In this document: positions 33,960 through 35,045 of the stretch, piece by piece
Position numbering within the stretch: position 1 is the stretch's first letter
Layout of the letters: each line of letters starts with the position of its first letter
Assembly: GCA_951406725.2 (NCBI GenBank)
Contig: OX597815.1
Span: 161,448,001-161,512,000 of the forward strand
Origin: Octopus vulgaris
Taxonomy: Eukaryota
Direction of reading: 5' to 3'
DNA: 64,000 nt
The notes under the pieces: model-generated
What the model saw: only the letters and a program-made list of their open reading frames with translations
Databases searched by the model: none
What the model was told of the DNA's origin: nothing
Translations under genes and position numbers: made by a program

Positions 33960-35045
33960 ATGAATTATCTTATTAAGGATAATTCGAAAGATAACCGATA
34001 CCTGGGTAGAAATTCACATCAGAAAGAACACGGTTGAAGCTACGTCCCTAGATCATAGACTACGTGTCTTCGTGCGGAAATTTGTATGTTTATTTTAAAA
34101 TTATAAGTATATGAAAGAATGGAGTTGAACGACTAGTTAACAAATATCCTTTATTCTCGACATATGTTTCGAAGGCTGCATATTCCTAATTCCGAAGGAA
34201 TAAGGAGTACCTTATGCAGATTTCTCATCAGGAAAATCAAGGAACTTATGTGGACATCAAAATGCACAAAAAACTTTTAGCTGACCGCTCTCAAGGCGAT
34301 AATGAGTGTCTCTTTATAATGAGTGACGTCAGAGTGGCTGAATGTAGAAGAATCTAGAAGTTTCTAAAGGTTCAAGAGTTCAAACGAAGTAGGAGGAGGG
34401 AGGTATAAGAATAGTGAGGTGAGAGAGTGCAGGTCAACAGAATGGTGGGTTTAAATGATTTCTTTTGTGAATGAGTGCCTGTGTGTGTGACTGTATATAA
34501 CTGACTTAGTGTGTGTATGTGTGTGTCTGAATGCGTGATTGTGTTTGTGGATGGGTAGATGTCAAAAAACTGACAGCTGTGAGTTGAAAGGTCTGTATCT
34601 GTGTGTTCGATTATGTTTACTGTAGGGAAAGGAAAGTAGATAGCGAAAGGGAGAAAGAATCGGGCGAGGTGAGAGGCAACGCAAGAATGGATAGTAGTAA
34701 TTGGGAATATAAGAAAATCTTTTTTGACTATTGGGGTAAAATATAGCAAAAATTTTTTTGGAAATCGAGGGGTTATCTATATTAGTCACTATTTATATGA
34801 ATGAAATGTGTGTCTTTTCCAGTGTAAGCACCTGTATGACCTTTCGACGATTGTGTTTATTAAAGGGCCTTTGGTGAACAAAATATGAAAAAGTTCGGAA
34901 TTACAGATGCCACAAAATTTTCTGCCTTTATCAAACGGGAAGGACACCGACAAAATGGACCAGAGTTCCATGCAGTTGAAATCCAGATCTGTTCGATAAA
35001 AATATTTTATGAGGAGTATATAGCCAAGCAGTATGGTATGTGAAT
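33960..35045 (-). mobile_element. Penelope-like element 3' part (GIY-YIG C-terminus and 3' UTR/pLTR with HHR)
   Basis: ORF 34789-34971 LWSILSVSFPFDKGRKFCGICNSELFHIL..LINT..RCLHWKRH resembles the PLE endonuclease C-terminus; a canonical HHR lies downstream on the same strand. Confidence 0.75.
34153..34237 (-). ncRNA. Canonical-core type I hammerhead ribozyme with extended stem II
   Basis: Reverse complement ATTTTC-CTGATGA-GAA..CTGCATA..TCCT..TTCC/GGAA..AGGA..TATGCAG..TTC-GAAA-CATATG-TC-GAGAAT; GUC site. Confidence 0.85.

What the first reader, a model, noticed from the sequence alone, without database searches (positions are those of the whole stretch)
34153..34237. Fully canonical hammerhead downstream of a Penelope GIY-YIG remnant
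Seen: perfect CUGAUGA/GAAA/GUC core, 6-bp stem I, ACAUAUGU palindromic stem III and an unusually long, interrupted stem II (about 55 nt). It is on the same strand as, and about 550 bp downstream of, a PLE endonuclease C-terminal fragment. This is the best candidate for an active ribozyme and links the motifs to PLEs. Three different HHR families lie within 1.5 kb, all on the minus strand.
Basis: partly seen in the sequence, partly recalled or inferred. Interest (0 to 1): 0.7.

Follow-up and report, generated by a model that had tools for sequence, protein, structure and literature searches.

The report
Long-armed hammerhead in Penelope-like retroelement
This is one of about two thousand genomic copies of a hammerhead RNA motif, predicted to cut itself, at the end of a Penelope-like jumping gene; the pairing is already known, but this family has kept an arm twice the usual length through long evolution.

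Summary
A type I hammerhead with an intact core lies at 34237-34153 (minus strand), 552 bp behind the stop codon of a Penelope-like (PLE) endonuclease fragment. It belongs to a 5'-truncated 1,015-bp copy (34962-33948) of a 3.45-kb element closest to the Hydra clade. A pattern finds 2,104 matches in the genome (control 0). Between two subfamilies, synonymous sites differ by about 67%, yet no invariant core base changes and the 54-nt stem II is kept. Three two-sided pair changes separate the subfamilies, so the fold is under selection. Stem III is predicted unstable alone; two window copies co-fold into the active double hammerhead, so cleavage likely needs a dimer. Cleavage is untested. Hammerheads in Hydra-clade end repeats are published, so the link to PLEs is not new. 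Differences from them: stem II 54 nt (12-26 in published Hydra rows), a tail of about 150 nt, and loss of the cysteine linker while copies still end in (TA)n. In 19 of 20 inverted insertions one arm has the tail and the other lacks it. This scan noted long-stem-II PLE hammerheads before, on other DNA.

The parts
33948..34962 (-). 5'-truncated copy of a Hydra-like Penelope element (endonuclease end, 3' UTR, hammerhead, tail)
   Evidence: Boundaries shared with other copies; fullest relative L067 has a 3,455-bp unit between two hammerheads
34789..34962 (-). Last 57 codons and stop of the C-terminal GIY-YIG-type endonuclease (CxxC..E..N..CxH)
   Evidence: 98% identical to the L064 ORF; W, C, C, E, I, N, E, C, H invariant in 13 aligned sequences; profile hit E 7e-5
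34246..34788 (-). 3' UTR part of the pseudo-LTR, poorly conserved
   Evidence: 59-62% identity to subfamily C copies
34232..34243 (-). Stem I, 5' strand (5 outer pairs, G-A mismatch, 6 inner pairs)
34225..34231 (-). Core C3-A9 (CUGAUGA)
   Evidence: column counts over 135 copies
34171..34224 (-). 54-nt interrupted stem II
   Evidence: Two-sided changes at 34220/34175 and 34204/34186
34159..34170 (-). GAAA, palindromic stem III (34167-34160), C17; predicted cut between 34159 and 34158
   Evidence: Sequence; cut site inferred from hammerhead numbering
34147..34158 (-). Stem I, 3' strand
   Evidence: Two-sided change at 34236/34154
34080..34102 (-). Proximal zone where many copies end (inferred reverse-transcription start)
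   Evidence: 31 of 75 scored ends
33948..34101 (-). Tail of about 150 nt; its far end is the distal end zone, 51 nt before the ORF start codon in read-through copies
   Evidence: 40 of 75 scored ends; about 80% identity to subfamily C
33912..33947 (.). (TA)n tract abutting the 3' end
   Evidence: 67 of 71 ends in the two zones abut (TA)3 or more

Best explanation
The motif is the type I hammerhead in the end repeat (pseudo-LTR) of a high-copy Penelope-like retroelement closest to the Hydra clade, and it likely cuts the element's RNA after C34159, probably slowly and mainly when two hammerheads pair through the palindromic stem III. Shown: the motif, its place between ORF stop and next ORF start, copy number, selection on core and stems, and two end zones. 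Inferred: tandem transcripts carry two hammerheads 3,455 nt apart, which form a double hammerhead and release unit-length RNA. Copies end 57-79 or about 210 nt downstream of the cut site and run intact across it, so the RNA that was copied must have been uncut or re-ligated there. This window's copy is a truncated by-product with one hammerhead and is probably a passenger.
For: 2,104 pattern matches, control 0. L067 has hammerhead-leader-ORF-UTR-hammerhead in direct order. Subfamilies A and C: endonuclease dN/dS 0.07-0.08 and synonymous difference 0.66-0.69 in 3 comparisons; UTR identity 59-62%, against 97% for C3-A9 and 80% for stem II. Majority letters differ at 0 of 11 invariant core positions (P about 0.004 at UTR divergence) and at 5 of 40 outer stem II positions (P 2e-4). 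Core variation falls mostly on the free positions N7 (12 of 135) and H17 (25 of 135, all U). Three pairs change on both sides between subfamilies; 60 such cells against 19 in shuffles and at most 24 in slid controls. The unconstrained co-fold of two window copies is the double hammerhead, -58.0 against -50.6 kcal/mol for two monomers. Literature: dimer-dependent, low activity of animal PLE hammerheads (PMC4209133); Hydra hammerheads with palindromic stem III (PMC8557442 File S2).
Against: No cleavage or RNA-end data. Each two-sided change is one event between subfamilies; the number of covarying pairs (5) did not beat shuffles (284 of 500), and one slid control matched the covariation score (0.086 against 0.083). 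The tail beyond the ribozyme is as conserved as stem II (about 80%), so part of the constraint may serve reverse transcription rather than catalysis. Subfamily B mostly misfolds in the model: stem I forms in 3 of 25 monomers. The active dimer is the co-fold optimum in 20 of 31 A, 0 of 25 B and 4 of 22 C copies. In 400-650 nt of context stem I falls to 0.35-0.45. Subfamily B was fetched with a pattern that requires the core, so its core counts are biased. Invertebrate hammerheads with a 2-bp stem III and tetraloop can cleave well alone (PMC7229834). Pfam named neither domain.
Confidence: 0.7

Rival explanations
1. The hammerhead cleaves efficiently as a monomer, with an internal loop of the long stem II docking on the stem I mismatch in place of the usual loop 2.
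For: All subfamilies keep irregularities 4-7 pairs up stem II and a mismatch or loop 6-7 pairs up stem I. Two-pair stem III hammerheads of invertebrate retrozymes cleave efficiently (PMC7229834, passages).
Against: The stem II irregularity changes place and letters between subfamilies. The palindrome is kept in A and B and nearly kept, with a G-U, in C. Stem III pairs stay at 0.08 or less in every monomer fold.
Confidence: 0.17
2. The fold is kept mainly as a protein-binding or RNA-pairing signal for reverse transcription; cleavage is incidental or protein-gated.
For: Hammerhead and tail form one conserved block. Every copy that carries the hammerhead was copied across the cut site. In the anole PLE, core mutants did not affect insertion in vitro and cleavage needed the protein (PMC11167929).
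Against: The catalytic bases are more conserved than the stems, and core variation is largely confined to the positions known to be free.
Confidence: 0.12
3. A chance or decayed match amplified passively with a repeat.
For: Copies of the window's own subfamily are 98-99% alike, so their agreement alone proves nothing.
Against: Conservation across subfamilies with near-saturated synonymous sites; 1 of 100 shuffles gave a hit.
Confidence: 0.01

Closest known systems
Hydra-clade PLEs and their hammerheads, e.g. Hydra-1_Obim (Craig et al. 2021, PMC8557442; section 11, passages, Files S1 and S2 read)
   Same: C-terminal endonuclease without CCHH, CxxC before E and CxH after N, DKT motif, RW motif near the N-terminus, type I hammerhead with palindromic stem III behind the ORF, (TA)n at the ends, inverted arms.
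   Different: Stem II 54 nt against about 12-26 nt in the 26 Hydra rows (counted by eye). Linker cysteines are absent and an Asn/Ser-rich stretch stands in their place. RWL for RWK. Unit 3.45 kb against generally under 3 kb. Tail about 150 nt against 30-40 bp. The Hydra-1_Obim hammerhead is a different sequence.
Minimal and palindromic-stem-III hammerheads of animal PLEs (Cervera and de la Pena 2014, PMC4209133; parts 1-2 of 4 read)
   Same: Place in pseudo-LTRs, thousands of solo copies, inverted pairs 100-700 bp apart, G10.1-C11.1 pair, palindromic stem III, proposed dimer activity.
   Different: Their helix II is 6-8 bp; here about 20 bp with bulges. No unpaired base after A9 here.
PAc, Poseidon PLE of the green anole (Frangieh et al. 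2024, PMC11167929; parts 1-2 of 4 read)
   Same: Two internal start sites downstream of the hammerhead define an optional tail.
   Different: PAc's ORF starts in stem II and its start sites lie inside the ORF; here the ORF starts 262 nt after the cut site and both end zones lie before it.
PLE-X1_sMoe hammerhead of Selaginella (PMC8557442 File S2)
   Same: Stem II plus loop of about 53 nt: a published precedent for the length.
   Different: Plant, endonuclease-less element that targets 28S rDNA; marked there as deviating from the canonical structure.

Membership tests
Type I hammerhead ribozyme | Core C3-U4-G5-A6-N7-G8-A9, G12-A13-A14, A15.1-U16.1, H17 | tested here: met
Type I hammerhead ribozyme | Helices I (open), II and III around the core | tested here: met
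   I and II predicted at 0.88 or more and supported by pair changes; III only 2 bp in the monomer, 8 bp in the dimer
Type I hammerhead ribozyme | Loop 1-loop 2 tertiary contact of fast natural hammerheads | not testable with these tools
   No canonical loop 2 four pairs from the core; no 3D test available
Type I hammerhead ribozyme | Self-cleavage 3' of H17 | not testable with these tools
   Only contigs were on offer
Penelope-like elements | Single ORF with PLE-type reverse transcriptase and GIY-YIG endonuclease | tested here: met
   YRDD and DKT motifs; 56 homologs at E up to 1e-3; Y..YIG, R, H, E, N residues; Atlas cluster with PF01541 in 11% of members, a lead only; likeness to published Hydra alignments judged by eye. 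Pfam gave no RT or GIY-YIG hit. All 8 long loci show broken frames.
Penelope-like elements | Pseudo-LTR carrying the hammerhead; partial tandems and inverted arms | tested here: met
   L067 direct pair; L063 and L064 partial tandems; 20 inverted pairs
Hydra clade | DKT in place of DKG | tested here: met
Hydra clade | N-terminal RWK motif | tested here: inconclusive
   RIRWL in this family; RWK or RWR in the 11 aligned homologs
Hydra clade | No CCHH; CxxC and CxH flanking the conserved E and N | tested here: met
Hydra clade | CxCX5C linker before the endonuclease | tested here: not met
   Present in 28 of 32 homologs; absent in L064 and in the B and C copies that span it. Hence filed as Hydra-like, not as a member.
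Hydra clade | Insertion at (TA)n | tested here: met
   67 of 71 3' ends; only 6 of 17 simple 5' junctions
Hydra clade | Placement in a tree with the reference families | not tested
   Reference sequences were seen only in a paper's supplement; no tree was built
Non-LTR retrozyme | Non-coding tandem units of 170-400 nt | tested here: not met
   Unit is 3,455 bp with its own ORF under purifying selection

The most novel reading that the evidence does not exclude
The palindromic stem III is a template-dimerisation signal: it joins two element RNAs so that a dimeric reverse transcriptase-endonuclease primes one target end at the distal site and the other at the proximal site. This yields the inverted insertions with a tail on one arm only (19 of 20). 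The long stem II is a protein handle, and (TA)n targeting works without the zinc linker thought to mediate it.
Probability: 0.12. Interest if true: 0.7.

Novelty: new variant of a known kind. Interest (0 to 1): 0.35.

Why it matters
The role of PLE hammerheads is still open (PMC8557442, PMC11167929). This family offers a graded series of subfamilies showing that a 54-nt stem II is kept by selection, which suggests a function beyond holding the core together. Standard models miss the motif, so such hammerheads are probably undercounted. The family also keeps (TA)n ends without the linker cysteines, a natural test of the idea that the linker mediates microsatellite targeting. The basic association is known, so the gain is incremental.

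Tried and rejected
Sequencing runs: no RNA holder listed; 19 of 22 rows hold part of the stretch, all as contigs. Laying 4 runs showed subfamily variants but cannot show RNA ends. Rfam: nothing relevant. Pfam: only sub-threshold hits. Homolog search with the endonuclease alone: 51 candidates, none significant. An apparent shared start at 34296 is an artefact of a short deletion private to the window copy. 5' ends of copies are not enriched at the cut site: 3 of 81 pieces begin within 12 nt of it, in a sample biased towards whole hammerheads. An upstream helix that could mask the cut site reaches only 0.11 in one subfamily A copy and 0.05 or less in the others folded: rejected. A second hammerhead-like core in the tail lacks A9 and stem I: rejected. 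The tail alignment (75 copies) gave no consensus fold, so no tail structure is claimed. Retrozyme and Naiad readings were rejected (own ORF; endonuclease at the C-terminus). Microhomology priming on (TA)n fits the junctions but cannot be told from chance in AT-rich sequence.

Full report
Observation. The minus strand carries a type I hammerhead: stem I 34237-34232 with 34158-34153 (extendable by 5 pairs after a G-A mismatch), core 34231-34225, a 54-nt stem II, GAAA, an 8-nt palindrome and C17 at 34159. It is the only strict hit in 64 kb; 1 of 100 shuffles gave one. Rfam does not detect it.

The element. The window lies in a 2.8-Gb genome; the 201 bases around the motif have 1,555 first-look candidates, and the best are 98-99% identical. 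The closest named proteins are from octopods; I did not look further into origin. The window copy runs from 34962 to 33948 and abuts (TA)n. Walking upstream gave an ORF with RIRWL, DKT, YRDD and a C-terminal endonuclease ending in CxxC..E..N..CxH. In L067 two hammerheads stand in direct order 3,455 bp apart, with the ORF start 262 nt after the first cut site. All 8 long loci have broken frames. The reverse-transcriptase part has 56 homologs. A profile of 32 of them, with no family member included, finds the window peptide at E 7e-5. The motif set is that described for the Hydra clade (PMC8557442, section 11), except that the CxCX5C linker, present in 28 of 32 homologs, is replaced by an Asn/Ser-rich stretch. 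I therefore call it Hydra-like. Pfam named neither domain; the GIY-YIG label rests on residues, a weak Atlas lead and likeness by eye to the published alignment.

Selection on the RNA. Pattern and similarity searches gave three subfamilies: A (the window's), B and C. A wider pattern finds 2,104 matches, control 0, with further variants among the first 100 listed. Of 148 extracted copies, 135 complete A, B or C copies were counted; 9 were dropped as incomplete and 4 fell outside the three groups. Between A and C the endonuclease shows dN/dS 0.07-0.08 and 66-69% synonymous difference (3 comparisons), and the UTR is 59-62% identical. C3-A9 is 97% identical, stem II 80% and the tail 80%. Majority letters differ at 0 of 11 invariant core positions and 5 of 40 outer stem II positions (P 0.004 and 2e-4 at UTR divergence). 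Core variation sits at N7 and H17. On 78 distinct gap-free copies (of 93 distinct), three pairs change on both sides between subfamilies: 34236/34154 in stem I, 34220/34175 and 34204/34186 in stem II. These are single events; the count of covarying pairs did not beat shuffles, and one slid control matched the score. The window copy has two private changes near the motif (34252, 34211), neither in the core.

Mechanism. In monomers stems I and II form and stem III does not (0.02 or less). Two window copies co-fold into the double hammerhead with an 8-bp stem III and a free core, 7.4 kcal/mol below two monomers. That holds for 20 of 31 A copies but 0 of 25 B and 4 of 22 C, and B monomers mostly misfold. 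Dimer-dependent, slow cleavage is reported for animal PLE hammerheads (PMC4209133) and is the reading I commit to; it is inferred, not shown. Of 75 scored 3' ends, 31 fall at 34102-34080, 40 near 33948 and 4 elsewhere (4 more lay at locus edges); 67 of the 71 abut (TA)n. By analogy with the anole PLE (PMC11167929) these are two reverse-transcription starts, here about 150 nt apart. In 19 of 20 inverted pairs one arm ends at each zone (P about 4e-5 for the 18 of 19 first counted). A tail on one end only is already described (PMC8557442). Because both zones lie downstream of the cut site, the copied RNA was uncut or re-ligated there.

Comparison. Hammerheads behind the ORF are listed for 26 Hydra rows, including an octopus family, with stem II plus loop of about 12-26 nt; a Selaginella PLE has about 53 nt (File S2). 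Four literature searches on these points showed no description of this family or of a stem II this long in an animal PLE; most subscription papers and Repbase were not searchable. Of other papers I saw passages only: PMC7229834, PMC3088659, PMC13725137; and part 1 of 5 of preprint 10.64898/2026.07.22.740005, whose supplements I could not see. The supplementary figures of PMC4209133 were not read and may show longer helices. Earlier notes of this scan report long-stem-II PLE hammerheads and two-armed insertions on other DNA; I read them after making my own counts.

Verdict. A real hammerhead under selection, in a known setting, with a modest structural variant. Interest 0.35; new variant of a known kind.

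Noticed in passing
window 33545-33494 (-); second copy near 62786-62822 (+): Hammerhead-like family with the 3-8 core pair swapped to G3-C8 (GUGAACA), 7-bp stem I, 5-bp stem II and a U17 site. A pattern leaving positions 3, 7 and 8 free has 3,530 matches, control 0; about 95 of the first 100 listed carry G3-C8 (counted by eye). In the passages read, only U3-A8 is reported as a natural swap (PMC3088659, PMC4209133); one search. May deserve its own look.
   Followed up: partly
window 32782-32742 (-), partial copy near 33127-33095: Third hammerhead family with a U3-A8 core (UUGAUAA) and a 6-nt palindromic stem III, in an element with inverted arms 32853-33317. C3-G8, G3-C8 and U3-A8 cores thus lie within 1.5 kb.
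   Followed up: no
window 22683-22934 (+): Another C-terminal endonuclease remnant of a Hydra-like PLE (profile E 1.2e-5).
   Followed up: no
L064 ORF between reverse transcriptase and endonuclease; L086, L092, L117, L118, L131: An Asn/Ser-rich low-complexity stretch replaces the cysteine linker in all three subfamilies; public relatives are annotated as myb-like or GATA zinc finger proteins.
   Followed up: partly
window 33709-33812: A near-perfect 104-bp inverted repeat at the edge of a (TA)n tract, possibly a two-armed insertion of another element.
   Followed up: no
window 33985-33962 (-): An 8-9-bp hairpin just before the distal end zone is kept in subfamilies A, B and C with varying loop (by eye).
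   Followed up: no
L034 1-930 (element sense): This family's copy abuts a different PLE-like reverse transcriptase frame with a DKG motif.
   Followed up: no
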